DNA of 64,000 nucleotides from Antedon mediterranea (GCF_964355755.1 NC_092673.1:17667648-17731647), one strand, 5' to 3'; shown: positions 3,901-64,000, counted from the stretch's first letter. Numbers and translations: made by a program. The notes: a model not told the origin generated them from the sequence alone.

Positions 3901-6900
3901 ATTTCACATAATGTCTGTTGTCAGTATTTATAAACTCCATTATGATTCCTTTCCAGAATGGTGACACTCTATTACATTCATATCTGATGATTGGATACCC
4001 TACCTTAGAAATAGTGACGTGTCTCATTCAGCATGGGACACCATTAGCATTGCAAAATAAGGTAAATGTACAGGGATTTGCTAGTGTAATAGGCTAACAT
4101 TGTATAGATATGCTGTGGTAAACCATTCTATTTTGTTCTACTCATTTATTAATAATGATAATTATGATTATTTACCACAATATTTAGTAGCAATTGTTGT
4201 TGTTTGTATTGACAAAAAAAACAAACAATTTCACATAATGTCTGTTGTCAGTATTTATAAACTCCATTATGATTCCTTTCCAGAATGGTGACACTCTATT
4301 ACATTCATATCTGGGGACAGGATATACACCTACCTTAGAAATAGTGACGTGTCTCATTCAGCATGGGGTACCAGTAGCATTGCAAAATAAGGTATTGTAC
4401 AGGGATTTGCTAGTGTAATAGGCTAACATTCTATAGATCTGCTGAAGTAAACCATTTAATGAGAGAAAAAAGTAAGCACATTAACAAAAATCAAATTTTA
4501 TTAAAAGAAATCAAATTAAAATAATAACTAAACAGTTATATATGATTTATGATAACTGATTTAAAGTATACAGTTATTCATCAAATAACATATATCTTTT
4601 TTCTTAATGAACAAAAACAATCTACTTGTAATTTTTTATATTCAGGTGAATCACTATAATTTTGTTTAAATATTTTTACCATAAAATAAATATATATTGG
4701 TCATATCAGGGAGTTGTAAAATGACAACTCCCTGGTCATATGTAGCTGTAAAGATAACAACAATTGAAAATGGTCTAATTAATTATAAATATGAAATAAA
4801 ATGTATGTTGACAAATAATAGAATAGCAAACAAAAATGTTTGTGTTATTGTTAACAAAATTAATAGAATCTGATTTTAATAAAAAAGAATTATTAATTGT
4901 TAATAACTTGCTCCCTCCCTTACCTTCCAAAAAAATACTTCTGTCAGTATATCCAGCTAATTACAGTTTGAATATGGCCTTTTAAAGAGATCTTTTTCCA
5001 GCATTTTTTTTTTTTGCAAATATTTTGCCACAAATGGAAGAGAAATGTAAATAATGTTTAGTTTATAGTGGTTTCCAAAATCTAAAATTGTTCGAACAAT
5101 GCAATTAGACATTTTTTTATATTCAGGTGAATCAGTATAATTTTGTTTACATATTTTTGACCGTAAAACAAATATAAATTGGTCATATGTAGCTGTAAAG
5201 ATAACAATGATTGACAATGGTCTAATTAATTGTAAAGATGAAATAAAATGGGACAACTACATTGATTAATAATAAAATAACAAATAAAAATGCTTATGTC
5301 AAAAAAATTAATAGAATCTGATTTTAATAAAAAAATAATTATTAATTAATAACCTGCTCCCTCCCTTACCTTACAAAAAAATGCTTCTGTAATAGTAATA
5401 GGCTAACAATCTTTAGATCTGATCCATGGTAAGATATTCTATTTTGTTCTCATTTATCAATCATGTCAATTAGGATTATTGACCACATTATTTAGCAGTA
5501 ATTCTTGCTATGGTTTGGGTTGACAAAAAAAAACCCAATTTCACATAATGTCTGTTGTCAGTATTATACACCAACAACATTGCAAAATAAGGTAATGTAC
5601 AGGGATTTGCTAGTGTAATAAGCTAACATTATATAGATCTGCTGAAGTAGACCATTTATTGAGAGAAAAAAGTAAGCACATTAACAAAAATAAAATTTGA
5701 TTAAAACAAACCAAATAAAAAAATAACTAACTAGATTTAAACTCGTCACTACGGACGAGTTAGGTTATCCGCAGCGCAAAAGGCATGTGCACGTCATACG
5801 TTAGAATATTACGCGCAGAAAAACGTTTACGCCATTGAAAAAATGATAGTGCGCCCTCTATTTTGCGTCACGTCTGAGTATATACGGTATACACTATATA
5901 CTATATACGTATAACCATACAGTGCAGAATAGTGAAAAGAAGTGACCAAAGTTATTAACGCTTTTGAACATGATGACGTAATAACAATTTTAAAAATTGT
6001 AAATCATGCGAAAGATAATTGATTGACCTAAACAATATAAAAAATGGAGGGCAATGGAATACGGATAATTGGAGATGTGCTCTATTAAATGTGATGAGCT
6101 ATGACGAAAGAGACAAAAATCCTATTATTTATATTCGAGTGGCCATACGATGACGTCACAATGTCCGGTTAGTCATATTGATGCATGATTTGATATCTGC
6201 AACTCATCTACTACCAGAATATGTAATTTTAAAAAAGTTCACCACGTAGTTTAGAATTTATGACTGTTTAAAAAAAGGCATAATTTTGACAAATTTTTGA
6301 ACTTTTTCATCAAAAATGCGCGTAAATTGTTTAATTCTACGTGCTCGTATGACGTGATTTTAAGTCGAAATTGTTTGAAAGTTGGTAAATTTTCTAAAAA
6401 AGACAGGAAAAACAAAAATCAAGCAAAAAAATGATGTTTTTGCGCTACGTGCGCACGTGCGCGTAAAAAAATTGCGCACGCGTGGGAATTTTTGAAATGC
6501 TCAAAATGACATGAAACGCGTAGAAAGTTGATTAGATATTGATTTTTCGCATTTTGAAATTTTAAACGCGCGTAACTTTTTGTGAAACATGCCATTTTTA
6601 ATCCATAGAAAGTTTGCGCTTGATATGACTTAAAGTTTCACCAAGTTTCAATACAAAACGACTTTTAGTTTTTAATATATGATCAATCATTGAAATTCAT
6701 AAAATCGCGCGTAACTTACGCTGCGCGAATCAAAGTTCATAAAAAAAAGTTTCTTGCACATCTACAGCTACAGGGCTATCTTTTGACAAAGTTATACAAT
6801 CATATGTTGGCCAGAATTAGAGATACGCTGCGAACAAAATTCGTGGAAAGAAAGAAGAACATAGGAAAAAAATGGGTTATCCGCCAAGTGCGGATAACCA

Positions 6901-9900
6901 AATAGTTATATATGATTTATGATCTGATTTAAAGTGTACAGTTACCTATCATATGACATAAATCTTTAATTTCCTTAATGAACAAAAAAATCTATTTTTT
7001 TTATATATTCAGTTATTAATTAACAATTATTGACAATGGTCTAATTAATTGTAAATATGAAATAAAATGCGACAACTACTAAACAACTAAAAATGTTTAT
7101 TAAAAAAAATAATAGAATCTGATTTTAATAAAAAATAATTATTAATTAAAAACCTGCTCCCTCTCTTACCTTACACAAAATGCTTCTGTCAGTCTATCCA
7201 GCTAATTATGAACATGGCCATAAAGAAATCCTTTTCCAACCTAGGATCTTTTTGTGCAAACATTTGCCACAAAATGAAATGTAAACAATGTTTTGTTAGT
7301 TTTCAAAATCTAAATTGTTTGAGTAATGCAATTTAAAAAAGAAAGGTAATATGAAATTATTCTTTTCAAACTGAATGCTTTTAAGAAAAGTTCCGTCTCT
7401 TATCTTATGACTTTTTTGGAAAAATGATTTCTCGCTAAAATATAATATACTAGTAAGTGCTCACAGATGGTTCTTAAATACATGACCTTTGGTAAATGAC
7501 TGAAAATTGTTTAAATACAAAGCAAATAAAATACAGATATGTTGGAATTTATGTAGTCAAATATAATTGTCATCCTGAGAATTACCTTAATTTTGTTTAT
7601 TGCATGGTATTGTTCACCAAATTCCTGTCTTGGTACAATTGATGATGGGATGGTATCAGGCTTCATGATATGATATGATTTTCATCGAGGCAAATGGTTT
7701 AAACTAAATTTGTTATCGTTAATATCTAACTTAGCTTAATTGGTTATCCGCACTTGGCGGATAACCTCTTGTTATTGTCAGGATCTTTTTTTTTTTTTTT
7801 TTTTTTTTCTATGTTATTCTTCTTTCTTTTCCAGAATTTTGTTGGTCGCATATCTCAAATTATGGCCAGCATAAGATTGTATAACTTTGTCATAAGATTG
7901 ACTTGTAGCTGTAGATGTGCAAGAAACTTTTTTTTTTAAATTTTGAGTCGCGCAGCGTAAGTTACGCGCGATTTTGTGAATTTTGCGTATTTTACATAGA
8001 TTGAAAACCAAAAAGCAATTTTAATTGAAACTTGGCAAAAGTGTAATTTATATCATGCGCTAACCTTCTATGGATTTAAAATGGCACTTTTCCAAAAAGT
8101 TACGCGCGCACGCGCGTTTAAAATTTCAAAATGCGAAAATTCAATTTCTAATCAACTTTCTACGCGTTTCAGGTCATTTTGAGCATTTAAAAAATTCCAA
8201 CGCGTGCGCATTTTTTTTACGCGCGCGTGCGCACGCAGCGCAAAAACATCTTTTTTTTGCTTGATTTTTGTTTTTCCTGTCTTTTTTTAGAAAATTTACC
8301 AACTTTCAAACAATTTCGACTTAAAATCACGTCATACGAGCACGTAGAATTGAACAATTTGCGCGCGTTTTTGATGAAAATGTTCAAAAATTCATGAAAA
8401 TTATGCCTTTTTTAAAACAGTCATAGATTGTAAACTACGAGGTGAACTTTTTTTAAATTACACATTCTGGAAGTTGATGAGTTGTAGATATCGAATCATG
8501 CATCGATATGGCTAACAGGACATAGTGACGTCATCGTATGGCCACTCAAATATAAAATATAGGATTTTTGTCTCTTTCGTCATAGCTCATCACATTTAAT
8601 AGAGCGCATCTCCACTTATCCTAATTCCATTTCCCTCCATTTTTTTATATTGTCTATGCCAATCAATTATCTTTCGCATGATATACCGTTTTTAAAATTG
8701 TGATGACGTCATCATGTCCAAAAGCGTCAATAACTTGGGCCACTTATTTTCACATATTCTTCACTGTATGTAGTACGTATACAATATATAGTGTATACTG
8801 TGTATACTTAGACGTGACGTAAAATAGAGAGCGCACTAACATTTTTTCAATGGCGTAATGGTTTTCTCTGCGCAATATTCTAACGTATGACGTGCACGTG
8901 GCGTTTGCTCTGCGGATAACCTAACTCGTCCGTAGTGACGAGTTCAAATCTAGTTATGATATTGGTTTCATTGGGAGTTAAAAATCAGTACCGAAAGTAT
9001 GTACCAACTTTCTCTACCATTGAGTATAAATTCTAGAAGTTGCACTTAATTTACTGAAATTTCCCATTACCTAAATTTATATGTAAATTCATTAAACTGC
9101 TTATTGGTCTCATATTGTTAACATCTAAACATGTATTTGTACAATTTTATGAAATATGTATTTTGTTAATGTTCAAATTTTGTGATTGATATTGTACAGT
9201 AAGTAGATGTTAATGATTACTTACATTAAGTAATAGGCTAACAATCACTAGATCTGATCCATGGTAATATATTATATTTTGTTTTCATTTATCAATAATG
9301 ATAATTAGGATTTTATCACATTATTTAGCAGTAATTGTTGTTATTTATATTAACAAAAAACCCAATTTTACATAATGTCTGTTGTCAGTATTTATAAACT
9401 TCATTATGATTCCTTTCCAGGATGGTGACACTCTATTACATTCATATATGAGGAATGTATATAGAATATCTACCTTAGAAATAGTGACTTGTCTCATTCA
9501 GCATGGGACACCAGTAGCATTGCAAAATAAGGTAAATGTACAGGAATTTGCTAGTGCAATAAGCTAACATTATATAGATCTGCTGAAGTAAACCACTTAA
9601 TGAGAGAAAAAAGTAAGCACATTAACAAAAATCAAATTTGATTAAAACAAACCAAATAAAAAAATAACTAAATAGTTATATATGATTTATGATAACTGAT
9701 TTAAAGTGTACAGTTACCTATCATATAACATAAATCTTTAATTTTCTTAATGAACAAAAAAATCTATTTTTTTTTATATATTCAGTCATTAATTAACAAT
9801 TATTGACAATGGTCTAATTAATTGTAAATATGAAATAAAATGCGACAACTACTAAACAACTAAAAATGTTTATGTTAAAAAAATTAATAGAATCTGATTT

Positions 9901-12900
9901 TAATAAAAAAATAATTATTAATTAATAACCTACTCCCTCCCTTACCTTACAAAAAATGCTTCTATCAGTCTATCCAGCTAATTATAAACATGGCCTTAAA
10001 CTACATCTGGAGATCCTTTTCCAACCTAGGATATTTTTATGCAAACATTTTGCCACAAAAGGAAGAGAAATGTAAATAATATTTAGCCTTTAGTTAGTGG
10101 TTTCCAAAATTTAAAATGTTTGAGCAATGCAATTTAAAAAAGAAAGCTAGTATGAAATTCCTTTCAAACTGAAAATAATGATAATTAGGATTTTATCACA
10201 TTATTTAGCAGTAATTGTTGTTGTTTGTATTAACAAAAAAAAACCCAATTTTCACATAATGTCTGTTGTCAGTATTTATAAACTTCATTATGATTCCTTT
10301 CCAGGATGGTGACACTCTATTACATTCATATCTGAGGAATGATAGAATACCTACCTTAGAAATAGTGACTTGTCTCATTCAGCATGGGACACCATTAGCA
10401 TTGCAAAATAAGGTAATGTACAGGGATTTGCTAGTGTAATAAGCTAACATTATATAGATATGCTGTGGTAAACCATTCTATTTTGTTCTACTCATTTATT
10501 AATAATGATAATTATGATTATTTACCACAATATTTAGCAGCAATTGTTGTTGTTTGTATTGAAAAAAAACAAACAATTTCACATAATGTCTGTTGTCAGT
10601 ATTTATAAACTTTATTATGATTCCTTTCCAGTATGGTAACACTCCATTACATTCATATCTGTGGAGTGTACATACACCTACCTTAGAAATAGTGACGTGT
10701 CTCATTCAGCATGGGGCACCAGTAGCATTGCAAAATAAGGTATTGTACAGGGATTTGCTAATGTAATAGGCTAACATTCTATAGATATGATGTGGTAAAC
10801 CATTCTATTTTGTTCTACTCATTTATTAATAATGATAATTATGATTATTTTACCACAATATTTAGCAGCAATTGTTTTTGTTTGTATTGACAAAAAAAAC
10901 AAACAATTTCACATAATGTCTGTAGTCAGTATTTATAAACTCCATTATGATTCCTTTCCAGAATGGTGACACTCTATTACATTACTGTCTGAGGAGAGGA
11001 TATCCACCTACCTTAGAAATAGTGACGTGTCTCATTCAGCATGGGACACCAGTAGCATTGCAAAATGAGGTAATGTACAGGGATTTGCTAGTGTAATAGG
11101 CTAACATTATATAGATATGCTGTGGTAAACCATTCTATTTTGTTCTACTCATTTATTAATAATGATAATTATGATTATTTACCACAATATTTAGTAGCAA
11201 TTGTTGTTGTTTGTATTGACAAAAAAAACAAACAATTTCACATAATGTCTGTTGTCAGTATTTATAAACTCCATTATGATTCCTTTCCAGAATGGTGACA
11301 CTCTATTACATTCATATCTGGGGACAGGATATACACCTACCTTAGAAATAGTGACGTGTCTCATTCAGCATGGGGTACCAGTAGCATTGCAAAATAAGGT
11401 ATTGTACAGGGATTTGCTAGTGTAATAGGCTAACATTCTATAGATCTGCTGAAGTAAACCATTTAATGAGAGAAAAAAGTAAGCACATTAACAAAAATCA
11501 AATTTTATTAAAAGAAATCAAATTAAAATAATAACTAAACAGTTATATATGATTTATGATAACTGATTTAAAGTATACAGTTATTCATCAAATAACATAT
11601 ATCTTTTTTCTTAATGAACAAAAACAATCTACTTGTAATTTTTTATATTCAGGTGAATCACTATAATTTTGTTTAAATATTTTTACCATAAAATAAATAT
11701 ATATTGGTCATATCAGGGAGTTGTAAAATGACAAAAATCTAAAATTGTTCGAACAATGCAATTAGACATTTTTTTATATTCAGGTGAATCAGTATAATTT
11801 TGTTTACATATTTTTGACCGTAAAACAAATATAAATTGGTCATATGTAGCTGTAAAGATAACAATGATTGACAATGGTCTAATTAATTGTAAAGATGAAA
11901 TAAAATGGGACAACTACATTGATTAATAATAAAATAACAAATAAAAATGCTTATGTCAAAAAAATTAATAGAATCTGATTTTAATAAAAAAATAATTATT
12001 AATTAATAACCTGCTCCCTCCCTTACCTTACAAAAAAATGCTTCTGTAATAGTAATAGGCTAACAATCTTAGATCTGATCCATGGTAAGATATTCTATTT
12101 TGTTCTCATTTATCAATCATGTCAATTAGGATTATTGACCACATTATTTAGCAGTAATTCTTGCTATGGTTTGGGTTGACAAAAAAAAACCCAATTTCAC
12201 ATAATGTCTGTTGTCAGTATTATACACCAACAACATTGCAAAATAAGGTAATGTACAGGGATTTGCTAGTGTAATAAGCTAACATTATATAGATCTGCTG
12301 AAGTAGACCATTTATTGAGAGAAAAAAGTAAGCACATTAACAAAAATAAAATTTGATTAAAACAAACCAAATAAAAAAATAACTAACTAGATTTAAACTC
12401 GTCACTACGGACGAGTTAGGTTATCCGCAGCGCAAAAGGCATGTGCACGTCATACGTTAGAATATTACGCGCAGAAAAACGTTTACGCCATTGAAAAAAT
12501 GATAGTGCGCCCTCTATTTTGCGTCACGTCTGAGTATATACGGTATACACTATATACTATATACGTATAACCATACAGTGCAGAATAGTGAAAAGAAGTG
12601 ACCAAAGTTATTAACGCTTTTGAACATGATGACGTAATAACAATTTTAAAAATTGTAAATCATGCGAAAGATAATTGATTGACCTAAACAATATAAAAAA
12701 TGGAGGGCAATGGAATACGGATAATTGGAGATGCGCTCTATTAAATGTGATGAGCTATGACGAAAGAGACAAAAATCCTATTATTTATATTCGAGTGGCC
12801 ATACGATGACGTCACAATGTCCGGTTAGTCATATTGATGCATGATTTGATATCTGCAACTCATCTACTACCAGAATATGTAATTTTAAAAAAGTTCACCA

Positions 12901-15900
12901 CGTAGTTTAGAATTTATGACTGTTTAAAAAAAGGCATAATTTTGACAAATTTTTGAACTTTTTCATCAAAAATGCGTGTAAATTGTTTAATTCTACGTGC
13001 TCGTATGACGTGATTTTAAGTCGAAATTGTTTGAAAGTTGGTAAATTTTCTAAAAAAGACAGGAAAAACAAAAATCAAGCAAAAAAATGATGTTTTTGCG
13101 CTACGTGCGCACGTGCGCGTAAAAAAATTGCGCACGCGTGGGAATTTTTGAAATGCTCAAAATGACATGAAACGCGTAGAAAGTTGATTAGATATTGATT
13201 TTTCGCATTTTGAAATTTTAAACGCGCGTAACTTTTTGTGAAACATGCCATTTTTAATCCATAGAAAGTTTGCGCTTGATATGACTTAAAGTTTCACCAA
13301 GTTTCAATACAAAACGACTTTTAGTTTTTAATATATGATCAATCATTGAAATTCATAAAATCGCGCGTAACTTACGCTGCGCGAATCAAAGTTCATAAAA
13401 AAAAGTTTCTTGCACATCTACAGCTACAGGGCTATCTTTTGACAAAGTTATACAATCATATGTTGGCCAGAATTAGAGATACGCTGCGAACAAAATTCGT
13501 GGAAAGAAAGAAGAACATAGGAAAAAAATGGGTTATCCGCCAAGTGCGGATAACCAAATAGTTATATATGATTTATGATCTGATTTAAAGTGTACAGTTA
13601 CCTATCATATGACATAAATCTTTAATTTCCTTAATGAACAAAAAAATCTATTTTTTTTATATATTCAGTTATTAATTAACAATTATTGACAATGGTCTAA
13701 TTAATTGTAAATATGAAATAAAATGCGACAACTACTAAACAACTAAAAATGTTTATTAAAAAAAATAATAGAATCTGATTTTAATAAAAAATTATTATTA
13801 ATTAAAAACCTGCTCCCTCCCTTACCTTACAAAAAATGCTTCTGTCAGTCTATCCAGCTAATTATGAACATGGCCATAAAGAAATCCTTTTCCAACCTAG
13901 GATCTTTTTGTGCAAACATTTGCCACAAAATGAAATGTAAACAATGTTTTGTTAGTTTTCAAAATCTAAATTGTTTGAGTAATGCAATTTAAAAAAGAAA
14001 GGTAATATGAAATTATTCTTTTCAAACTGAATGCTTTTAAGAAAAGTTCCGTCTCTTATCTTATGACTTTTTTGGAAAAATGATTTCTCGCTAAAATATA
14101 ATATACTAGTAAGTGCTCACAGATGGTTCTTAAATACATGACCTTTGGTAAATGACTGAAAATTGTTTAAATACAAAGCAAATAAAATACAGATATGTTG
14201 GAATTTATGTAGTCAAATATAATTGTCATCCTGAGAATTACCTTAATTTTGTTTATTGCATGGTATTGTTCACCAAATTCCTGTCTTGGTACAATTGATG
14301 ATGGGATGGTATCAGGCTTCATGATATGATATGATTTTCATCGAGGCAAATGGTTTAAACTAAATTTGTTATCGTTAATATCTAACTTAGCTTAATTATG
14401 ATATTGGTTTCATTGGGAGTTAAAAATCAGTACCGAAAGTATGTACCAACTTTCTCTACCATTGAGTATAAATTCTAGAAGTTGCACTTAATTTACTAAA
14501 ATTTCCCATTACCTAAATTTATATGTAAATTCATTAAACAACTTATTGGTCTCATATTGTTAACATCTAAACATTTGTTTGTACAATTTTATGAAATATG
14601 TATTTTATTAATGTTGAAATTTTGTGATTGATATTTATAAATTTACATAGGGATTTGCTGGTGTAATAGGCCAACATTAATTGTAATTGTTGTTTGTTTT
14701 GACAAAAAAACAAACAATTTCACATAATGTCTGTTGTCAGTATTTATAAACATCATGATTATGATTCCTTTCCAGGATGGTAATACTCCATTACATGTGT
14801 ATTTTAGGAGGAGTAGATTAATACCTACCTTAAAAATAGTGACTTTTCTGATTCAGCATGGGGGCACCATGTTGTTCTAGGAATTTCCATGCTAGTTGTG
14901 TCTACATTAATCCTCATAGGTTTAGAACATTCTTCAAAAATAGGTCTTCTGACTGGTGCTGCCATCTTTGTGCACTCCCAAAACTGAATGATTCATTCTT
15001 TAGTATCTCTTCGGATACAAATGAAAACGATGCATTGCTCAACTTGGATCCACTAGTATGTGGAATCAACAACGATTCCAGCAGTAATTCGGACTCTATC
15101 ATTGATCCTGCAGAGGTACTGAAAGGAAAAGGCATGCATTTTCTTCATGTTAATGCGCGGTCTCTACTACCCAAAATATCTGAACTTAGAACACTTGTTG
15201 GTGGAACCAAAGTGGCAGTCATTGCTGTCACTGAAACGCACCTTGACAGTTCCATTACCGATAATGAAATACACATCCCAGACTTCCAACTATATCGTCG
15301 AGACCGTGCCAGAGCAGGTGGTGGAGTATGTCTGTACTTCAAGTCTACCCTGGCCATTACTATGCGGTCTGACTGTAACAATGCCAACATTGAGGCACTA
15401 TGGTCTGAAGTACATCTCCCAAGAACAAGGCCTATTATCGTTGGAGTCTGTTATCGGCCACCAAAACAACGTCATGGTGAATTTATTGATGGAATGGATA
15501 ACATTATGGAACAACTACCGAGAAACTCAGAGATCTACATTTTCGGAGATACAAACATGTCTAGCTTGAAAAAGGATAGCAACTATATCAAATTCCAACA
15601 GACTCTGCACATCAGTGGAATGTCTCAAATTATGAGCGAACCCACACGCATCTGTGATTCCTGCGAATCTTGTCTTGATCATATTATCACCAACTCTTCG
15701 GACAAACTAAACAAATTCGGAGTGCTATCTATAGGCTTCAGTGATCACTTTCCTATATAGGCCACTCGTCACACACAGCGACAAAAACACCACACGCATA
15801 AAAAGGTGAAGATTAGATCAACTAAAAACTACAATAGAGAAAAGTTTATACGTCTTCTTCAAGAGACTGATTGGGACAATGTTCACAAGGCAGAAACCGT

Positions 15901-18900
15901 TGATTTTTCGTGGCAAGCCTTTTGTGTAAATTTCACAAATGTTTTGGATAAAGTTGCTCCTGTAAAAGAAGTCCGAATTAGACACTCTTCTCAGCCGTGG
16001 ATGACACCTGACATACTCAAAATTATTAAGGCCAGGGATATTTATCTTAATAAATTCAAAAGAACTCGTAATTTATTATATCGTACTGAATACTGTAAAC
16101 TTAGAAATCAGGTACAAAGAAATATAAAAGAAGCAAAGCAGACTCATTTTATTGACAAGATCAATACAAATCGACATAACCCTAAAAAGTTATGGAAGGT
16201 TATAAAAGATCTTGGGTATCAAAATAAACAAAATGAAACTGCTTCGATTACTCTTAAAATAAATGATAAACTATGTAGTGAGCCAAACATTATTGCCAGT
16301 CACTTTAACTCGTTTTTTACAAACGTAGCATCAGATCTGGTAAGAAAGCTCCCGCAAAGGTCATACCAATTTGATGTAAATTCTGAGAATTTTAAAAAAT
16401 ACTATGACGGTACTGACAAATTTTCCTTGCAACCTGTAAACAACGATATAGTTAAAAAGGAGATCTTGGGTCTCAGTATAAATAAAAGTACAGGTCTAGA
16501 TTGCATACCCACACGTTTTTTAAGGGATGCGTCCGAAATTATTGCAACTCCCATAACACGGATTATCAATTTCTCATTTGAAACGGAATGTTTTCCAAAT
16601 GAGATGAAATTGGCTCGTGTTCGACCAATTTACAAGAAAAAAAATAATCTTGAAACTGCTAACTATAGGCCTGTCAGTATACTGTCGGTGGTGTCAAAAA
16701 TTGTAGAAAAGATTGTTCACTCACAATTAAATGAGTTTTTGGAAAGGAACAAGCTTTTATATCGTTTTCAGTCTGGTTTCAGACAGTCCTTTTCAACAGA
16801 TCACTGTTTAATTCACTTGACAGACTTCATTAAAACTCAAACAGCGAAAGGGAAATTTACTAGTATCTTACTTATTGACATCCAAAAAGCTTTTGACTGC
16901 GTTAGTCATGACTTACTTTGTAAGAAACTCAGAAAAATTGGAATCGAATCTGTCAGCTGGTTTAAATCATATCTGGAATGTAGACATCAAACAGTCAATA
17001 TATTGGTGGGGCTGTTTCAGAGCCTTCAGAAATTGTATGTGGAGTGCCACAAGGGAGCATCCTGGGACCACTCCTGTTCCTCATCTACGTCAATGATATG
17101 CCTATGTCTGTCTCATCATTGTTAATGCAATATGCTGACGATAGTGCAATTGTCAATGCTCATCATGATCCTGATATTATCAGTAAAAATCTTGCTAGGG
17201 ATCTGTCTAATTGTAATAAATAGTTAATTGACAATAATTTATCACTTCACATGGGAAAAACTGAACTAATGTTGTTTGGTCCCAGGATGTCTCTCAAGAA
17301 CTACACAAATTTTAGCGTCCTTTACAATGGCTATACAATTTCTTTGAATAGCTCTATAAAATACCTTGGTATCGAACTAAGCAATAGGCTTAATAGTGAA
17401 TTAATTGTCTCAACAATTATTAAGAAAGTTAATGGTCATATTAAATTTGCGTATAGGAATTGTCGTAACTTTGATCGCTGTATTCGTAAACTCATAATGG
17501 AAGCCCTGGCTCTAAGCCATATAAATTATGCTATATCATCCTGGTACTGGGGTACAACCGCGGATTCCCGTACTAAACTTCAAAGAACACAAAATAAAGT
17601 AATTATTGTATTGTCTCATATATGGTACATCTGCAGCATTGCAAAATAGGGTAATGTAGGCTTACAAAGAATTGTCAGGACAATTTCACATTTTATTGTT
17701 ATCATGAGTATTTATAAACTTGAACTTCAGTATCAATTAGCCTCCATATTAATCAATAGTATTACTACCTCAACGAGCAGCATTATTTAATCAGACTTAC
17801 CGATATAGAATTCTCAAGTAAAAAATGTTTGATTGTTTTCACCTTTTTCTCTTTTTACACATAGCACATTCTAACAAGTTTGTTTTGATTTTGATATTCA
17901 TTTATAAGTCAACTATAATTGTAATGTGTTGTTGTTTTAATATTTCATTTGTATCTTGATAGTATCCAAATATTATTTGCTTTGAAAGTTTATTGTAAAA
18001 CTATTTGTTGTTTTATATTATGGCTCAAACATTTTAACACATTTACCTACTGTTCCAAAGTAAACTTTTATTCAATTTATCTCTCTCTCTCTTCCATCTT
18101 TCAATGTTGAAGGCGGTAGACTATAAACGGCAGCGCTTAAGTTTTGGTTTGGATACAGGAGTTATAGGTGGCGCACTGTACAAGTTGATGTCATTTATTG
18201 GCAAATAGTAATTTCTATTCACGTCCTAATTTACAACCAATGTTAAAAAATAGTAAAGCTACGTGTTATCACATGATGCTCTTTCATCCAATCTCTAGAT
18301 GGTAAATGTTTGAGCCATGACTGTATGTATGTGATGCGTATTAAAGTGTGTTATATTGTATATCAATAATTTCTCAAAAACTACTAATAGTAACTAAACC
18401 CATTTTTTAATAGGATGGAAATACACCTGTCTCTGTTTTAGAAAGTAACAGGTGGATAGGGCACAAGAGAAAAACTGAACTTTTAAACTTCTTTAAAAGT
18501 AAGTGAAGTTTTAATTATTAAAATTTTGGAATCAACTAGTTTTCATTACAAACGATAAAGATTTGATTTTTTGTCCCAAATGAAGAAGAATGTCCAGATA
18601 AAGAAAATTAACATTTATGATATCATTCACAGGTTCAGATGGCAATAGATTAAATAATCCACTGGGATTGTAGTAAACCATGGAGTAAAGAATAAGAGGA
18701 GGCACAACTCGGCCTAGCTATCCAGTTAATCCAATTAGTATCACGCTGTGCGGTAGTGCTTAAGCATAGGGTAATAAACTTCCCATAACGATCCTTTGAA
18801 GAACATCCTGTTTACCCGTGCAGCTCGCTGCAGAGTCGGCTCTGATTACGTAACACCCTAATTAAGGAAGAAGCCAGGCATGACATCGGTGACAAAAAAA

Positions 18901-39799: not shown

Positions 39800-40197
39800 A
39801 GTATCCCCTGAATAGGGGTGTCCTAAAGAAGGGATTTACTCCAGTAGTAAAGAGGAGGGGTGTGTCCCCTGAATAGGGATGTGTCCCCTGAATAGGGTTG
39901 TCTTAAAGAAGGGGTTTGCTCCAGTAGTAAAGAGGAGGGGTGTGTCCCCTGAATAAGGGTGTCTTAAAAAAGGGATTTACTCCAGTAGTAAAGAGGAGGG
40001 GTGTGTCCCCTGAATCTGGATGTGTCCCCTGAATAGGGGTGTCCTAAAGAAGGGGTTTACTCCAGTAGTAAAGAGGAGGGGTGTGTCCCTTGAATAGGGA
40101 TGTGTCCCCTGAATAGGGGTGTCCTAAAGAAGGGGTTTACTCCAGTAGTACAGAGGAGGGGTGTGTTCCCTGAACAGGGGTATGTCCCCTGAATAGG
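39800..40197. repeat. Minisatellite with 80- and 61-bp units (includes a 19-bp subrepeat) in the putative 3' UTR
   Basis: ccagtagta recurs at 39841, 39921, 39982, 40062 and 40142. Confidence 0.9.
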
Positions 40198-47889: not shown

Positions 47890-50800
47890 ATGGAAAGGTA
47901 CGTTTTTAACAATTATTTCAAACAAAAATAACCAGCTCCAATATGTGTTGATATTATTGAAATATGTAACTATTAAAAACAGATTAAAATTTTTGAATAG
48001 TTATATTGAATAAATACACATACTGTACTTTATAAGGCCTAAAAAAAAAAAATTGTTTGTTTGCTGTCAAGTTTTTTTTTTTGGTAAGGGTGGAAAAAAG
48101 TTTTTTTTTTTTTTTTTTTTTTTTTTAATGTTAATTTCTCTTTTAATTGCTCGCGAATTTGAGAGTAACAAAACACACTGAATAAAACAACGAGCTCAAA
48201 CATCTATTCATAATTTGTTTCACACTTTAATTCTGTTTTGGTCGCGTTAGGCCCCGTGTCTAAACTAGCCTAGGCTAGAGGCCTACTACACAGTAGGTCG
48301 TTGTTAGCAGGCCTAATTAAATATTTTAATTTTTAGAAGTTAGTGTACCGCTAATGCTATTGTATATTTCGGTGTATAAGTCGCACCTGTGTATAATAGG
48401 ACGCACCCGACCCCTAACTGAGAGTAAAATATCGGTATTTTGTATATCGTCGATGTATAATACGGCCGCGCCCAGCCTCAACAAGAAGGGAAGTCCCCCA
48501 TTCCGTCAGTTCTTTCTAACTTGTTATGAATGAGTTTCGCACCCGCAACATCGAGTGCATGACCGCACGTACGTGTGTGTGGGCTAGCCTCGCTCGATCC
48601 TTTTATCGAGAGGCGCACGTTTTCACGGACAATCGTTTTCGATTAGTATCTATGTATCCTAGAAGTGTGTACGCTAGGTCTATGCTATAATCAACTAGAG
48701 AATATACTAGTCGAATACTGTGTACACAATGTGGTTGCCAAAGGGCTCGCTCGCGCTGGGGGTACGACGGTCCTGCGTATAACTATAATACTATTCCAAT
48801 CGTAAACGTTTTCAAATGAAATTTTATCGGAGCGCCTAAAACAGCTCCATAATGAACAAATCTTTTCATCATATTTAGTACAAAATCACGCTAAAATGCC
48901 TTGAAAACTAGCAGGTTGCTGTTACGCTAGTACACTGTAGCTAGGCTAGGCCTACTCTTTAGACTTTAGTAATACTAATAGGCCTAGGCCTTACCTTAAA
49001 AAGCCCAGGCCTAGCCAACGAGGTGGCGATATTTGTGTGTTGAGGCATTTATGTTCGGTGTATAAGACGCACCCTTAATTTAGAGGTTAAATTTGCGTGT
49101 CAAAAGTGCGATAATACACCGAAATATACGCTACGTTATTATTTTTATTGTTTCATCCTCGCACACTCGATTTTTACACCTTTTCGGCCAAAAAACTCAT
49201 AAAAAAAACTTTTTTTTAAAAAAGCGCCCTCAACGTAAAAAAAAAACTTTTTCTTATTTCCGCCCCAAATTTTTGGCGAAATTAGGGGCGGCGGATGACA
49301 GCAAACAAACTATTTTTTTTTTTTTGGCCTAATCATAATTTATAGGTCAAATAAAAAGAAAACACTTTGATTAAGATATTCTTATGAGAAAAATACTTCA
49401 AACTTTCTTAAAAGATTATGAAATCATAAATATTACAATTAACAGGCCCATCCTCATTAAATATAATAATAATATATTTACCTCAATCATCATTTTCATA
49501 AAAGAACATAATAATTCATTATTTTTACATTTTAACAGGAACAAATTACAAGATGCTTTCTACAGGAATGATTTGCAAAAAATTAAACAAATTTGTAAGA
49601 CGCAACCAGATCTTCTGAAATCTATCGATGAGGTATAAAAACAGATATATTTTTATAATATCAAAGAAGAATTCTTTTCATTAAAGTTTAACATTTAATA
49701 GTTTAAAGCTTTTTTACATAATGAATTACAATTCTTTTGCATGTACTGATTAACCACATTAGGCTAAAAATAATAATATAAATACACACTGATGATGGAG
49801 GTATAACCTGCATGCACTGATTAACCACATTAGGCTAAAAATAATAATATAAATACACACTGATGATGGAGGTATAACCTGCATGCACTGATTAACAACA
49901 TTAGGCTAAAAATAATAATATAAATACACACTGATGATGGAGGTATAACCTGCATGTACTGATTAACCACATTAGGCTAAAAATAATAATATAATACACA
50001 CTGATGATGGAGGTATAACCTGCATGTACTGATTAACCACATTAGGCTAAAAATAATAATATAATACACACTGATGATGGAGGTATAACCTGCATGCACT
50101 GATTAACAACATTAGGCTAAAAATAATAATATAAATACACACTGATGATGGAGGTATAACCTGCATGCACTGATTAACAACATTAGGCTAAAAATAATAA
50201 TATAATACACACTGATGATGGAGGTATAACCTGCATGTACTGATTAACCACATTAGGCTAAAAATAATAATATAAATACACACTGATGATGGAGGTATAA
50301 CCTGCATGCACTGATTAACAACATTAGGCTAAAAATAATAATATAAATACACACTGATGACGGAGGTATAACCTGCATGTACTGATTAACCACATTAGGC
50401 TAAAAATAATAATATAAATACACACTGATGATGGGTGTATAACCTGCATGTACTGATTAACAACATTAGGCTAAAAATAATAATACTGTATAAATACACA
50501 CTGATGACGGAGGTATAATCTGCATGTACTGATTAACCACATTAGGCTAAAAATAATAATATAAATACACACTGATGATGGAGGTATAACCTGCATGTAC
50601 TGATTAACCACATTAGGCTAAAAATAATAATATAAATACACACTGATGATGGAGGTATAACCTGCATGTACTGATTAACAACATTAGGCTAAAAATAATA
50701 ATATAAATACACACTGATGATGGAGGTATAACCTGCATGTACTGATCAACAACATTAGGCTAAAAATAACAATATAAATACACACTGATGATGGAGGTAT

Positions 50801-56800: not shown

Positions 56801-59800
56801 TGTACCAACTTTCTCTACCATTGAGTAAAAATTCTAGAAGTTGTATTTAATTTACTGAAACTTCCCATTACTTAAATTTATATATAGATTCAATAATCTG
56901 ATTATTGGCCTCATATTTTAATATCTCAACATTTGTTTGTACAAATTTCTGAAATATGTATTTTATTAATGTTCAAATTTTGTGATTGATAATGTACAGC
57001 AAGTAGATTTTAATGATTATTACATTAAGTAATAGTCTAACAATCTCTAGATCTGTATTTTCTATTTTTTCTCATTTATCTATAATGACAATTAGGATTA
57101 TTTAACACATTATGGTTTGTATTCATAGAAAACCAATTTCACATAATGTCTGTTGTCAGTATATAAAATTCATGATTATGATTCCTTTCCAGTATGGTGA
57201 CACTCCATTACATGGATATCTGAGATATGAAGATCCTACCTTAGATATAGTGAATTATCTCATTCAGCATGGGGCACCAGCAACATTGCAAAATAAGGTA
57301 ATAATGTACAGGGATTTGCTAGTGTAATAGGCTAACATTGTATTGATCTGCTGAAGTAAACTATTTAATTAATGAGAGAAAAAAATAAGCAAACAAAAAT
57401 CAAACAAAACAAACCAAATAAAAATAATAACTAAATAGTTATATATGATTTATGATAACTGATTTAAAGTGTACAGTTACCTATCACATAACATATATCT
57501 TTAATTTTCTTAATGAACAAAAAAATCTACTTGTAATTTTTTTTTAATCAGTATAATTTTGTTTACATATTTATGACCGTAAAACAAATATATATTGCTC
57601 ATATGTAGCTGTAAAGATAACAATGATTGACAATGGTCTAGTTAATTGTAAATATGAAATAAAATGGGACAACTACAGTATGTTGACAAATAATAAGATA
57701 GCAAATAAAAAAATGTTTATGCTATTGTTAATAAAAAAGAATTAGTAATTGTTAATAACCTGCTTCTGTCAGTCTATCCAGCTAATTATGAACATGGTCT
57801 TAAAGAGATCCTTTTTCAATCTAGGATCATTTTGTGCAAACATTTTGTCGCAAAAGGCAGAGAAATACAATGCAATTTTAAAAAGAAAGGTCTCTTATTT
57901 TATGACTTTCGTTTAAAAAATTTATTCTAATAAAGTTGCTAGTTAAAATTTAATATAATAGTGCCAACAGATGGTTCTCAAATACATGACCTTTGGTCAA
58001 TAACTGAAAATTGCCTAAGGGCCTGTTTCTGCTGAGCAGAAATAATCGATTATTAACCAATTATTTTTTTAATCGATTATTTTTGGGCAGCAGAAATGGC
58101 GCAAAATGAAATAACCGATTAAAAAATAATCGATTAAAAACACTCAATCCATTGCATGTTTTAACCGATTATTTCTTGTTTTAACCGATTATTGCGGAGC
58201 AGTTTTGAGCTGCAACATACATAGCGATTATTGACCGCACTTTGACCTCTAGAGTATGGCAACCCTCACTCACAAAGTATGCTGTTTATTTGCCCGATCG
58301 ATGACGATCAGCAAAACAACGATGTGGACCGATGAGATAACTTTTGATTGTTATTATTTTGTGGGAATTATACCGAGAGACTCCAGGATTCTGCGTTACA
58401 AGAACAACGTTACATCCCTCCCAGTCCAGGCTACGATGCTTTGCATGTCTTTGTTTAGTCCTGTTGTTTTCGTTAGAAATTATAGCCCAGCTAGGCCCTA
58501 CCCTAGAGTAGAACCAATAGCGAAACGAACTTTCTTGCCGACGTGCCCTTATTAATATACATCATTATTCTGTTGTATGTGGTACGGTAGTAGGCCTAGA
58601 TGTTTATTTTACAAATAATATAGCTTTACGTAAGAGTTCAATTTTAAATTTTTAATCCTACATGTGAGAGTTTTAGGCAGCGATAGGATGTAAACAAACC
58701 AACTCTCATCGGCCTTCCATAACTTGAACTGCGTTGTGGGTATGGATGACGTGATTTTTAAAAAGCTATTACCAGATAACCGATTAACGTCAGAGAACAT
58801 TTACAGTTGCAACACGGTCAATTCTGTGGTTTGTGGTACTTAGGAAAATCGATTATTTTTATTTTTATTTTTTCAGCAGAAACAGACCCTTAGTCACACT
58901 GTACACAAAGCAAATAAATACAGATATGTTGGAATTTGTGCAGTCAAATATAATTGTCATCCTGAGAATTACCTTAATTTTGTTTATTGCATGGTATTGT
59001 TCACCAAATTCCTGTCTTGGTACATTTGATGATGGGATGGTATAAAGGCTTCATGATATGATATGATCTTCATTGAGGAAAATGGTTTAAACTAAATTTG
59101 TTTTAATCGTTAATATCTAATATCTTAATAGCTTAATTATGATAATGGTTTCATTGGGTGTTAAAAATCAGTACCAAAAGTATGTACTAACTTTCTCTAC
59201 CATTGAGTAAAAATTCTAGAAATTGCACTTAATTTACTGAAATTTCCCATTACCTAAATTTATATATAAATTCATTAAACTGCTTATTAGCCTCAAATTG
59301 TTACCATCTCAACATTTGTTTGTACAATTTTATGAAATATGTATTTTATTAATGTTCAAATTTTGTGATTGATAATGTACAGCAAGTAGATTTTAATGAT
59401 TACTTACATTAAGTAATAGGCTAACAATCTCTAGATCTGATCCATGGTAAGATATTCTATTTTGTTCTCATTTATCAATCATGTCAATTAGGATTATTGA
59501 CTACATTATTTAGCAGTAATTCTTGCTATGGTTTGGGTTGACAAAAAAAACCCCCAATTTCACGTAATGTCTGTTGCCAATATTACACCAGCAACATTGC
59601 AAAAGAAGGTAATTATGTACAGGGATTTGCTAGTGTAATAGGCTAACATTCTATAGATATGATGTGGTAAACCATTCTATTTTGTTCTACTCATTTATTA
59701 ATAATGATATTTATGATTATTTACCACTTTATTTAGCAGCAAATGTTGTTGTTTGTATTGAAAAAAAACAAACAATTTCACATAATGTCTGTTGTCAGTA

Positions 59801-62800
59801 TTTATAAATTTCATGATTATGATTCCTTTCCAGAATGGTGACACTCCATTACATTCATATCTGTGGAGTGGATATAAATCTACCTTGGAAATAGTGACGT
59901 GCCTCATACAGCATGGGACACCAGTAGCATTGAAAAATAAGGTAATGTACATGGGATTTGCTAGTGTAATATAGGCTAACATTCTATAGATCTGCTGAAG
60001 TAAACCATTCAATGAGAGAAAAAACCCGGCAATAAAACCTGACAAACATCCAATGCCAAAAATTGAGGACATATTTGCGACACTAGCTGGAGGAGAGAAA
60101 TTCTCAAAGTTAGACCTAAAAAACGCATACTTACACTTGGAAATGAGTGAGGAAGCAAAACGAATACTCACCATTAACACACAAAAAGGACTATACCAGG
60201 TAAATAGACTACCCTACGGTATAACCCCAGCGACCGGCATATGGCAGCGGATTATGGGGCAAGTACTCCAAGGTATCCCAGGAGTTGCCTGCATACTAGA
60301 CGATATGATTATAACTGGTCAAAATGACGACGTTCATTTGGAGCGCTTAAAACAAGTGTTGGAAAACTAAGGGAAAATGGTCTAATTCTGAATAAGAACA
60401 AATGTCAATTTCTGAAAACAAAGGTAATCTTCTTAGGTCATGTGATAGACAAACAAGGTCTAAAGTCTTTAGACAAGATTGACGCGGTAGTAGTAAATGC
60501 CCCAGCACCCACAGACGTATCAACGCTACAATCGTTTATTGGTTTAATCAATTATTACTATCGTTTCTTACCAAACTTGTCATCTATTCTCTACCCATTG
60601 CATCAGATACTACAGAAAGAAAAAAAATGGGAGGTCTAGCAAATGTGAGAAAGCATTTGTTAAAGTAAAAAACATGATAGCGGAAGAGTGTGTACTCGCG
60701 CACTACGATCCAAAGCTACCTGTGAGATTAGCAACTGACGCATCCCCATACGGTCTTGGTGCCGTATTATCACACGTCGTAAACGGTGAAGAGCGCCCAA
60801 TAGCGTTTGCTTCGAGAAGCCTTACTGTCGTGGAAAAGAATTATTCGCAAATAGACAAAGAAGCGCTAGGTATCATTTATGGAGTAAAGAAATTCACAGC
60901 ATACCTGTTAGGGAGAAAATTCACATTGTTAACCGATAACCAACCACTCACAAGACTGTTTAGTCCAACGAAAGCGATTCCAGCTACGGCAGCAGCCAGG
61001 TTAACGCGACAAGCAATTTTTCTTTCGGGATTTGACTATGAAATTGTCTACCGTCCAAGCACAGATAACATGAACGCTGACGCATTGTCGAGACTACCAC
61101 TACACATGCAAAGTGAAAAGTCAAACAAACCTGACGACATAGAGTTATTTTACGCGGATTGCTATGAAGCATTGCCTGTCACGTTTAAACAAATTAAGGA
61201 ACATACCAGACGTGATCCAATATTATCTAGAGTACTAGAGTACACGAAAAACGGTTGGCCCAACCAACGAGACGACGAACTTGAAGCATTTTACCGTAGA
61301 AAGGACGAATTAAATCTAATCGATGAATGTTTATTTAATGGGGGAACCGAATAATTATTCCTCCCAAGCTACGCAAAGAAGTAAGCGACGAACTCCAACC
61401 AGGGACATCTCGGGGTAGTAAAAATGAAATCTATCGCGAGTAGCTACTGTTGGTGGCCCAGAATGGACCACGATATTGAGACATTAGCGAAAGCATGTCC
61501 AGGTTGCCAACTTAACATGAAGGAGCCACCAAAAGCACCATTACACTCGTGGGAGTGGCCTGAAAACGTATACGACCGCATCCATATCGATTACGCAGGT
61601 CCTATCGACGGCATTATGTACTTAGTAGTTGTACTGAGACGAGCACTCCAAAGGGCCAGAAGTATTAGCGACTAGAGATACCTCTTTGAGTAAAACCATT
61701 ACCATGCTGAGAAGTCTATTCGCACGATACGGCCTATGCCAGATACTTGTGTCAGACAACGGACCGCAATTTAAGTCAAGTGAGTTCGAAATGTTCTTGA
61801 AAAGCAATGGTATTACTTCGGCACCTTATCATCCTGCGACTAATGGTCTAGCAGTGCGCATAGTCCAAACATTTAAAAATGCCTTGAAAATGGCAAAACT
61901 GGACAAAGGAAGTAAACAGCTAAAGTTAGACAATTTCTTATTACACTACAGGAATTCACTACATGCAACAACCGGTGTAAGTCGAGCACAGTTATTCTTA
62001 AATAGAAATTTGAGAACAAGACTTGACCTAATTAAACCTGATCTAAAGCGGAAAGTGTTCGAGAATCAAAACAAGCAAAGAATAAACCCAGGAAAACAAC
62101 GCGAGTTCAAAATTGGACAAAAAGTGTTAGCTAGAGATTACAGAAATGAGGATAAGTGGGTAACAGCTAAAATTATAGCAGTAAATGGCCCACTGTCATA
62201 CGAAGTGAAAACACAACAAGGAGGACTGTGGAATAGACATGTCGAACAATTGCGCGAAACGCTATTGAAAACTACAGAAATCACCCAACCGACATTGACA
62301 CCACAGTACATACCGGAAGCGACACCAACACCAACAATGGAAACAGCACCTTCAATCGCAAACAATCAGCAAAGCGAAGAAGCAGTAAATAAAGAAATCA
62401 TGAACGCTAAAACACCAAGACGCTCCAAGAGAGTGGTCAAAAGCCCTAAAAGTCTTATAGCTGAAATATAATGAACTCATTGTCTTCCAATAAAATACAC
62501 AAGACATTTTGAACTGAACATTGATTTTTAATTCATATATAAATCTCAATTATTCTCTTTCACCTTGTACAACAATATGTAATGGATGAACACTAAACTG
62601 TTCACTATCAATTATCATTATTAATGGACCTTAAGATATATTCACTTTACAGATTCATAATTTTAAATATGTTTGTATGTCTAAATAGGAACCAAGTCAA
62701 ATAGCATACAATTATTGAATGTTCTTTTGTTTATATCGTACAGGTATAATAAAACCTAAAATAATTAAAAACAATATAAAACATAGAAAAAAGATTCTTA

Positions 62801-64000
62801 CGGATAACTTTAACTCATATATTGTTGACACACCCAAATGTTTAACCTACCTTTAAATTATTTCTGGGAGAATTGTAATGTATTATGTATAGCTATAGTA
62901 TTCTCAGATACTCCTAAATATTAGTATAGCGCCACCTATGTTGAAATAAAACTGATTTACAAAATGGACGATAGTTTACACTGTGTTTATGTCATGAGGT
63001 CTATAAACAATCAATTGTAATCCACAAACATCTTCAGTACACAACAATATTCTATTTTGTTTTCATTTATCAATAATGATAATTAGGATTTTATCACATT
63101 ATTTAGCAGTAATTGTTGTTGTTTGTATTAACAACAACAAAAAACAATTTCACATAATGTCTGTTGTTAGTATTTATAAACTTCATTATGATTCCTTTCC
63201 AGCATGGTGAAACTCCATTACTTTTATATCTGATGAGTAGAAATACAACACCTACCTTAGAAATAGTGACGTGTCTCATTCAGCATGGGGCACCAGTAGC
63301 ATTGCAAGATGAGGTAATGTACAGGGATTTGCTAGTGTAATAGGCTAACATTCTATAGATATGCTGTGGTAAACCATTCTATTTTGTTCTACTCATTTAT
63401 TAATAATGATAATTATGATTATTTTACCACAATATTTAGCAGCAATTGTTGTTGTTTGTATTGACAAAAAAAACAAACAATTTCACATAATGTCTGTTGT
63501 CAGTATTTATAAACTTTATTATGATTCCTTTCCAGGATGGTGACACTCTATTACATACATATCTGAGACATGAAGACCCTACCTTAGAAATAGTGACTTG
63601 TCTCATTCAGCATGGGACACCAGTAGCATTGCAAAAGAAGGTAATGTACAGGGATTTGCTAGTGTAATAGGCTAACATTCTATAGATATGATGTGGTAAA
63701 CCATTCTATTTTGTTCTACTCATTTATTAATAATGATAATTATGATTATTTACCACAATATTTAGTAGCAATTGTTGTTGTTTGTATTGACAAAAAAAAA
63801 ACAATTTCACATAATGTCTGTTGTCAGTATTTATAAACTTCATTATGATTCCTTTCCAGAATGGTAACACTCCATTACATTCATATCTGATGATTGGATA
63901 CCCTACCTTAGAAATAGTGACGTGTCTCATTCAGCATGGGGCACCATTAGCATTGCAAAATAAGGTAATGTACAGGGATTTGCTAGTGTAATAGGCTAAC
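47890..64000 (+). CDS. Gene B (3'-incomplete paralog): start exon 47890-47897, N-cap exon 49539-49632, ankyrin cassette exons B1-B5
   Basis: ATG GAA AG/GTAC joined to a phase-2 exon gives MERNKLQDAFYRNDLQKIKQICKTQPDLLKSIDE ending in phase 0, compatible with the downstream ankyrin exons. Confidence 0.75.
48036..49329. mobile_element. Harbinger-like non-autonomous element with a nested Tc1/mariner-like MITE (~48360-49132)
   Basis: TIR ggcc-polyA-ttgtttgtttgctgtca / tgacagcaaacaaac-polyT-ggcc with TAA flanks; inner TIR gtatatttcggtgtat / atacaccgaaatatac. Confidence 0.65.
49539..49632 (+). CDS. Gene B N-terminal capping exon (RNKLQDAFYRNDLQKIKQICKTQPDLLKSIDE)
   Basis: 94 nt, phase 2 to 0; L..A....DL..IK..  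...D pattern like an ankyrin N-cap. Confidence 0.7.
49739..53505. repeat. 71-bp tandem satellite (~38 units), interrupted by a TIR element
   Basis: Unit gcatgtactgattaaccacattaggctaaaaataataatataaatacacactgatgatggaggtataacct. Confidence 0.95.
51433..52527. mobile_element. TIR non-autonomous element with 8-10 bp TSD (hAT- or Mutator-like), containing a nested foldback element
   Basis: ggggtgtcacgaaacctaagacca / tggtcttaggtttcgtgacacccc; tgatgatg is duplicated on both sides. Confidence 0.85.
53513..55803 (-). mobile_element. HINE family 2 element carrying a nested ~850-bp insertion (~53769-54620)
   Basis: CTAG-hairpin-ggttatatgca at the left end, aggttatatgcatgataatgcatataacct at the right; the insert starts with the hairpin actagagggt...accctctagt. 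Confidence 0.7.
55842..56372. mobile_element. MITE (Harbinger-like TIRs)
   Basis: aggccaatttacacagacgagcggtaa / ttaccgctcgtttgtgtaaattggcct. Confidence 0.75.
57193..57297 (+). CDS. Ankyrin cassette exon B1: YGDTPLHGYLRYEDPTLDIVNYLIQHGAPATLQNK
   Basis: 105 nt, AG/GT, phase 0-0. Confidence 0.85.
58018..58890. mobile_element. MITE inserted in an ankyrin-array intron unit
   Basis: TIR agggcctgtttctgctga / tcagcagaaacagaccct with TA flanks and subterminal aatcgatt repeats; empty site aaaattgcactgtacac at ~180. Confidence 0.78.
59834..59941 (+). CDS. Ankyrin cassette exon B2: NGDTPLHSYLWSGYKSTLEIVTCLIQHGTPVALKNK
   Basis: 108 nt, AG/GT, phase 0-0. Confidence 0.85.
60025..63046 (+). mobile_element. 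5'-truncated Ty3/Gypsy LTR retrotransposon: frameshifted pol (RT - RNase H - integrase) plus probable 3' LTR 62874-63046
   Basis: FSKLDLKNAY, LPYG, ILDD; TDASPYGLGAVL, EKEA-like DKEA, NADALSR; WWPRMD..C..C, HIDYAGP, SDNGPQF, PYHPATNG. Purine tract gggagaa, then TGTAATGTA...AATAAA...TACACAACA. Confidence 0.92.
63203..63313 (+). CDS. Ankyrin cassette exon B3: HGETPLLLYLMSRNTTPTLEIVTCLIQHGAPVALQDE
   Basis: 111 nt, AG/GT, phase 0-0. Confidence 0.85.
63536..63640 (+). CDS. Ankyrin cassette exon B4: DGDTLLHTYLRHEDPTLEIVTCLIQHGTPVALQKK
   Basis: 105 nt, AG/GT, phase 0-0. Confidence 0.85.
63860..63964 (+). CDS. Ankyrin cassette exon B5: NGNTPLHSYLMIGYPTLEIVTCLIQHGAPLALQNK
   Basis: 105 nt, AG/GT, phase 0-0. 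Confidence 0.85.

What the first reader, a model, noticed from the sequence alone, without database searches (positions are those of the whole stretch)
3957..63964. Mosaic cassettes and sequence exchange between the two paralogous genes
Seen: A6 (3957) and B5 (63860), 60 kb apart in different genes, share the identical variable segment ATG ATT GGA TAC (MIGY) on different frameworks (GDTLL..GTP versus GNTPL..GAP). B2 combines WS (as in A4) with GY (A2/A5/A7). A8 looks like A3 (RN..RI) with VY as in A1. B1 and B4 share R.ED on different frameworks. Inference: short-tract gene conversion or intra-exon unequal crossover recombines the variable sites, and the paralogs act as a shared donor pool.
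Basis: partly seen in the sequence, partly recalled or inferred. Interest (0 to 1): 0.75.

Follow-up and report, generated by a model that had tools for sequence, protein, structure and literature searches.

The report
Shuffled ankyrin cassettes in feather-star genes
In a feather star, a family of signalling genes builds its binding end from one-repeat ankyrin exons that have been recombined into patchworks with a highly variable binding patch, likely drawing on the whole gene family as a shared parts pool for what may be an immune sensor.

Summary
Recombination among the cassettes is real; exchange between exactly these two genes is likely but not proven. The window holds two crinoid ankyrin-Roc-COR-DED (ROCO) genes, each ankyrin repeat on its own phase-0 exon. 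A6 and B5 share the identical MIGY tract, but their exons differ at only 3 of 105 nt: near-copies with patchy differences, not a tract grafted onto a foreign frame. Across 13 non-redundant units, PHI p=2e-4, 0 of 400 no-recombination simulations reach the signal under each of two models, partition trees conflict, and grouping by gene is rejected (AU p<=0.015). B4 is the best mosaic: A4-type introns, A3/A8-type frame, B1-type tract. Two reader examples fail: B2 is one base from the majority tract, and A3 is A8 minus 3 nt. Gene A's constant exons also switch nearest paralogue along the gene, and about 19 related models lie on a contig of one length, so the pool is the family. Close precedents: brown-algal ROCO exon shuffling and fungal HNWD repeats. 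No animal ankyrin-ROCO case turned up in 6 literature searches.

The parts
863..970 (+). cassette exon A1, one ankyrin repeat, phase 0
   Evidence: AG/GT ends, open frame; Pfam Ank on the sister exon A5, E 2e-5
1928..1939 (+). truncated cassette (acceptor plus about 12 nt, then fused to the next unit's 5' intron)
2090..2200 (+). cassette exon A2 (first cassette of block 1; replaced by A8 in block 2)
2967..4391 (+). 330-bp tandem of cassette exons A3 (2967-3074), A4 (3298-3405), A5 (3628-3735), A6 (3957-4061), A7 (4284-4391)
3987..3998 (+). MIGY variable tract of A6
3776..4102 (+). 327-bp unit carrying A6, present in block 1 and absent from block 2
5395..5660 (+). dead unit: acceptor and most of the exon deleted; second copy at 12052-12316
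9421..11398 (+). block 2 cassettes: A8 (9421-9531) and A9-A12 (10305, 10632, 10962, 11291), the last four identical in exon sequence to A3, A4, A5, A7
14776..17650 (+). cassette A13 split by a LINE-type element (endonuclease and RT frames 14852-17125); exon tail resumes near 17620
18414..18498 (+). gene A C-cap exon
   Evidence: 19 of 28 identical to the matching part of P0017
24765..38933 (+). gene A constant exons: linker, Roc, COR, acidic microexons, DED-like exon (38224-38763), stop; 21 exons from 18414 give one open frame of 975 residues
   Evidence: Pfam Roc and COR-A on close paralogues; DED weak (E 0.0025)
47890..49632 (+). gene B start (ATG at 47890, exon ends 47897) and N-cap exon 49539-49632, ending in phase 0
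   Evidence: read; similar to N-termini of P0014, P0016, P0019
57193..57297 (+). cassette exon B1 (most divergent unit)
59413..59681 (+). dead unit of gene B with the same deletion as in gene A (15 of 265 substitutions)
59834..59941 (+). cassette exon B2
63203..63964 (+). tandem cassette exons B3 (63203-63313), B4 (63536-63640, the nested mosaic), B5 (63860-63964; MIGY tract at 63890); the array runs off the window

Best explanation
These are ankyrin-Roc-COR-DED genes whose one-repeat ankyrin exons have recombined into patchworks, likely by germ-line unequal crossover and short gene conversion across the whole gene family, with a variable patch on the predicted binding face likely kept diverse by selection. 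Shown: one repeat per phase-0 exon; a recombination signal; gain or loss of a whole 327-bp unit and replacement of one cassette between two blocks that otherwise differ at 6 bases in about 5 kb; tract diversity far above the flanking introns; a patchwork of constant exons. Inferred: near-identical flanking introns supply the homology; crossovers in them change cassette number and order, conversion tracts that start or end inside the exon mix frame and tract; donors can be any family member; the protein would act as an intracellular variable sensor signalling through Roc-COR and DED.
For: PHI on 13 units (A9-A12 and A13 dropped as duplicates or broken): 416 of 861 informative pairs incompatible, p=2e-4, unchanged without the tract. 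Simulation on one tree with hot spots kept in place: 0 of 400 reach the observed ratio under each of 2 models. GENECONV-like test: 18 of 78 pairs p<0.05 against 3.1 expected; A6-A7 and the cross-gene pair A4-B4 pass globally. 5' intron, exon and 3' intron reject each other's trees, and by-gene trees are rejected in 5 of 5 data sets (AU p 0.0008-0.015). B4: introns 1 of 201 from A4 but exon 15 differences; shares markers with A3/A8 at exon positions 1 and 69 and four tract markers with B1. All 3 A6/B5 exon differences are states seen in other units (chance about 0.002). Block comparison. Among 7 internal-type units tract diversity is 0.39 against 0.03 in the 5' intron; pN/pS 8.7 in codons 1-10. 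The most variable residues (1, 3, 8, 11-14) match randomised positions 3, 5, 10, 13 of a designed ankyrin library plus the loop after them (PMC4308713, passages). Gene A's nearest paralogue changes along the gene: P0004 95-100% over exons 26586-31171 bar one acidic exon, P0074 89-95% over 31856-33072, P0002 94-100% over most of 33509-38914; amino-acid PHI p=5e-4. Framework variants at 3957, 3963, 3970, 4019, 4044 occur in contigs of 4 of 4 runs from three coded organisms.
Against: No constant exon is present for both A and B in the window and no genome was held, so the A/B split cannot be dated; shared ancestry explains non-clustering. At the 3% background of cassette introns A6/B5 is not unusually close (p 0.26). 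PHI on the exon alone is weak (p 0.015 at the shortest range, 0.08-0.45 beyond). Selection is suggestive only: pN/pS is 0.99 in the 3' frame and the count of distinct frame variants is not significant (p 0.13). AU tests on short partitions overstate conflict. The paralogue proteins are automatic models, some visibly fused (P0009, P0012, P0022), so part of the constant-exon patchwork may be annotation chimerism. Immune function is untested.
Confidence: 0.72

Rival explanations
1. The array was built and recombined inside one ancestral gene; A and B inherited it by duplication and have not exchanged since. A6 and B5 are simply the same ancestral cassette.
For: The same exon-deleted dead unit lies in both genes; A6/B5 are close over the whole unit, not only the tract; framework variants are shared across three coded organisms, so they are old.
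Against: A/B closeness is uneven: 1 of 201 (A4/B4 introns) against 15 of 265 (dead unit) and 23 of 460 (best spacer); constant exons of gene A switch nearest paralogue.
Confidence: 0.2
3. Part of the pattern is an assembly artefact: blocks 1 and 2 are two alleles placed in tandem, or repeats were mis-joined.
For: The blocks differ at 6 substitutions in about 5 kb; no laid contig spans the stretch.
Against: The tests used only one copy of the duplicated exons; tandem cassette joints are seen in contigs of 3 of 4 runs; if allelic, the A6 indel and the A2/A8 swap would be a polymorphism and still show shuffling.
Confidence: 0.04

Closest known systems
Brown-algal ROCO genes with shuffled LRR exons (PMC3341825, passages; PMC11378527, abstract, introduction and passages)
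   Same: Roc-COR gene family; one repeat per exon; dead or skipped exons in the array; repeat number differs between recent duplicates; variation on the binding face; proposed immune receptors.
   Different: Ankyrin, not LRR, repeats; phase 0, not phase 2; an animal; a C-terminal DED-like domain; no inverted exons found here; recombination shown here inside exons, with near-identical introns.
Podospora HNWD / fungal NLR repeats (PMC1805685 and PMC4986451, passages)
   Same: Repeat units exchanged within and between family members as a shared pool, with a few hypervariable binding-face positions; fungal NLR ankyrin arrays show the same regime.
   Different: There the nucleotide-binding domain is NACHT or NB-ARC and function in non-self recognition is known for het-d/het-e; here it is Roc-COR, repeats sit on separate exons, and function is untested.
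Sea-urchin Sp185/333 (SpTransformer) (search listing and abstract starts only)
   Same: Clustered echinoderm gene family described as mosaic and rapidly diversified.
   Different: Two-exon genes with mosaic elements in one exon; no Roc-COR or ankyrin resemblance was sought or found here.
Arthropod Dscam exon arrays (passage in PMC11378527; mutual exclusivity and docking sites recalled)
   Same: Tandem arrays of interchangeable exons.
   Different: Cassette-to-cassette joins occur here, so strict one-of-many choice is not met; no docking-type pairing stood out.

Membership tests
ROCO proteins | Roc GTPase domain followed by COR | tested here: met
   Gene A's exons are 95-100% identical to P0004 over most of Roc and 65-90% over COR; P0004 and P0006 pass Pfam cut-offs for Roc and COR-A. 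Gene B's Roc-COR lies outside the window and is inferred.
ROCO exon-shuffling system (brown-algal type) | one repeat per exon, same phase | tested here: met
   17 intact cassettes of 105-111 nt, all phase 0 (B3 end read)
ROCO exon-shuffling system (brown-algal type) | repeat is a 24-residue LRR | tested here: not met
   repeat is ankyrin
ROCO exon-shuffling system (brown-algal type) | gain, loss and inactivation of repeat exons | tested here: met
ROCO exon-shuffling system (brown-algal type) | alternative splicing of repeat exons | tested here: inconclusive
   one run guessed to be RNA shows cassette-to-cassette joins (3 contigs) and C-cap-like loose ends (6 contigs); isoforms cannot be read from contigs
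HNWD-type concerted repeat pool | repeats exchanged between loci whose other domains are clearly older | tested here: inconclusive
   by-gene grouping rejected and constant exons patchwork, but the A/B split is undated
HNWD-type concerted repeat pool | positive selection at binding-face codons | tested here: inconclusive
   pN/pS 8.7 in codons 1-10, 1.46 in the tract, 0.99 in the 3' frame; variant count p 0.13; no codon model run
HNWD-type concerted repeat pool | NACHT/NB-ARC nucleotide-binding domain | tested here: not met
   Roc-COR instead
Dscam-type mutually exclusive array | only one array exon per transcript | tested here: not met
   cassette-to-cassette joint 4059 to 3955 in 3 contigs of run X5 only; X5 is RNA by guess, so this is provisional
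Dscam-type mutually exclusive array | docking/selector RNA pairing | tested here: inconclusive
   16 flank-region scans, 6 shuffles each; 4 beat all shuffles, by 0.5-4 kcal, none a long perfect duplex; gene A's N-cap intron and gene B's C-cap intron were not available
Somatically diversified receptors (VLR, Ig) | rearrangement in somatic cells | not testable with these tools
   only contigs were offered, no raw or single-cell reads

The most novel reading that the evidence does not exclude
Feather stars carry a natural DARPin-like library: dozens of recombining ankyrin cassettes from which each cell picks a subset, by splice choice and possibly somatic rearrangement, to build a variable intracellular receptor wired to a Roc-COR switch and a death effector domain.
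Probability: 0.15. Interest if true: 0.9.

Novelty: new variant of a known kind. Interest (0 to 1): 0.6.

Why it matters
Exon-level shuffling of ROCO repeats was described in brown algae with LRRs, and shared repeat pools in fungal NLRs. An invertebrate deuterostome doing the same with ankyrin repeats, with variation at the positions engineers randomise in designed ankyrin libraries, would show convergence on one design and give a concrete, testable candidate for a variable intracellular recognition system in crinoids. The genes are badly served by automatic annotation: the models are unnamed, split or fused.

Tried and rejected
No whole genome was held, so the cluster could not be read. Contig depth is not used as copy number or expression: summed depth on the cassette is far above that on the LINE and rises over the exon in X5, but the tool rules out such use. 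No joint from cassette A12 to the gene A C-cap was among the 15 joints shown of 137. Docking-site search gave nothing clear, and 3 of 3 inter-cassette introns fold no better than shuffles. A site-specific recombination motif was considered: imperfect direct repeats flank each unit and three junctions fall at an AGATCT-like hexamer, but other junctions do not, and homology explains it; not claimed. B2 and A8 rejected as mosaics. ESM Atlas gave no hit for the DED exon. Earlier scan notes: nothing in 3 look-ups. Structure and complex prediction were not run. Supplements of the papers were not read.

Full report
What the window is. The DED-like exon at 38224-38763 matches a protein that NCBI names Antedon mediterranea at 100% (P0001), so this is crinoid DNA. 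Gene A (5' end before the window) has ankyrin cassette exons, a C-cap exon, and 20 further exons that give one open frame of 975 residues through Roc, COR and a DED-like domain. Gene B starts at 47890, has an N-cap exon ending in phase 0 and five cassettes before the window ends. Every intact cassette is 105-111 nt, phase 0, one ankyrin repeat, so any subset splices in frame. The 12 hits, the crinoid hits and 29 hits include about 19 Roc-COR or DED models of this type on a contig of the same length, and four other models with cassettes or N-caps of this kind: the family is much larger than two genes.

The observation. The MIGY tract occurs twice, at 3987 and 63890, the only identical tract in 78 pairs. 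The 'different frameworks' are 3 nt in 105; A6 and B5 are nearest neighbours and differ at 4-6 sites over the 282-nt unit, by alignment. All 3 exon differences are states found in other units (chance about 0.002), which fits patchy conversion of near-copies better than a tract moved onto a foreign frame. B4 is a nested mosaic: its introns differ from A4's at 1 of 201 sites while the exons differ at 15; it shares frame markers with A3/A8 and tract markers with B1. B2 and A8 do not hold: B2 is one base from the majority tract, and A3's tract is A8's minus 3 nt.

Formal tests, on 13 of 18 cassettes (A9-A12 dropped as exact exon copies, A13 as broken). PHI: 42 informative sites, 416 of 861 pairs incompatible, p=2e-4 at 4 of 4 ranges, the same without the tract; the exon alone gives p 0.015 to 0.45. 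Simulations on a single tree with site rates kept in place never reached the observed ratio 0.59 (0 of 400, twice). A GENECONV-like permutation gave 18 of 78 pairs at p<0.05 against 3.1 expected, with A6-A7 and A4-B4 globally significant; rate differences between intron and tract can inflate that test. The three partitions reject each other's trees and by-gene trees fail in 5 of 5 data sets; AU values on such short data are generous.

Recent events. Two blocks of gene A (about 2260-7740 and 9600-14400) differ at 6 substitutions, yet block 1 has an extra 327-bp unit carrying A6, and the first cassette is replaced over about 220 bp (A2 versus A8). Each unit is flanked by imperfect direct repeats in which the tandem junctions lie, a ready substrate for unequal crossover (inference). 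Dead units, a truncated exon and a LINE-split cassette show turnover.

Between genes. Non-clustering alone proves little, since A and B share a dead unit with the same deletion. The case for later exchange: A/B spacers differ at 5-11% (6 comparisons) and the dead unit at 5.7%, against 0.5% for A4/B4 introns (p 5e-4 at 5%, 0.017 at 3%); A6/B5 is less decisive (p 0.013 and 0.26). Independently, gene A's constant exons switch nearest paralogue from P0004 to P0074 to P0002 along the gene, with amino-acid PHI p=5e-4 on 10 sequences, subject to chimeric models. Direct A-to-B transfer cannot be told from a third donor.

Diversity and likely role. Among 7 internal-type units the tract is 0.39 diverse and the 5' intron 0.03. 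Variable residues sit at cassette positions 1, 3, 8 and 11-14, which align with randomised positions 3, 5, 10 and 13 of a designed ankyrin library and the following loop (PMC4308713, passages; many designed ankyrin chains among PDB hits). Tract lengths vary only in whole codons. Selection is suggested, not established. A sensor role is inferred from architecture and analogy only.

Other samples. Contigs of 4 of 4 laid runs, from three coded organisms, carry the cassette and five of the same framework variants among the 40 rows shown of 78, and 3 of 4 show the tandem joint: the system and its variants are shared across these organisms. Run X5, guessed to be RNA, alone shows an exon-end to exon-start joint (3 contigs) and loose ends resembling a C-cap exon (6 contigs): cassettes appear to be spliced both to each other and to a cap. 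NCBI models of this subfamily hold 2-3 cassettes in a row.

Known systems. Brown-algal ROCO genes shuffle one-LRR exons (PMC3341825, PMC11378527) and fungal HNWD/NLR repeats form a shared pool under diversifying selection (PMC1805685, PMC4986451); I read passages of these, not whole texts or supplements. Six searches listed no paper on ankyrin-cassette ROCO genes in crinoids or other animals; the library lacks most subscription journals. Verdict: real recombination, family-wide exchange likely (0.72), a new variant of a known kind, interest 0.6.

Noticed in passing
window 49738-51437 and 52527-53512: A 71-bp satellite (about 24 and 14 copies, 95% matches) starts about 100 bp after gene B's N-cap exon and is split by a 1-kb insert with inverted ends.
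   Followed up: no
window 60025-63047: Gypsy-type retroelement remnant (RT, RNase H, integrase) between B2 and B3; it starts abruptly inside RT right after B2's 3' flank, as if its left part was deleted in an array rearrangement (read).
   Followed up: partly
window 5711-6872, 7801-8974, 12367-13528: A 1.2-kb element, high-copy by contig counts, lies three times in gene A's array, once inverted at the block 1/2 boundary; it may have seeded the block duplication.
   Followed up: no
window 35420-37833 and 38914-39634: Small phase-1 exons with acidic and basic runs before the DED exon, two of them in duplicated intron context (35390-35455, 35866-35937); exon-like pieces also follow the stop.
   Followed up: no
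proteins P0013, P0015, P0020, P0022: Related ankyrin arrays are attached to a second, different Roc-COR subfamily on contigs of three lengths, and a second crinoid (Anneissia japonica, P0082) has an ankyrin-Roc protein of gene A's Roc type with unrelated-looking repeats.
   Followed up: partly
window 49540-49632: The N-cap helix also varies between paralogues at binding-face-like positions (B versus P0014, P0016, P0019).
   Followed up: no
window 39801-40197: GC-richer 19/61/80-bp compound tandem repeat just downstream of gene A.
   Followed up: no
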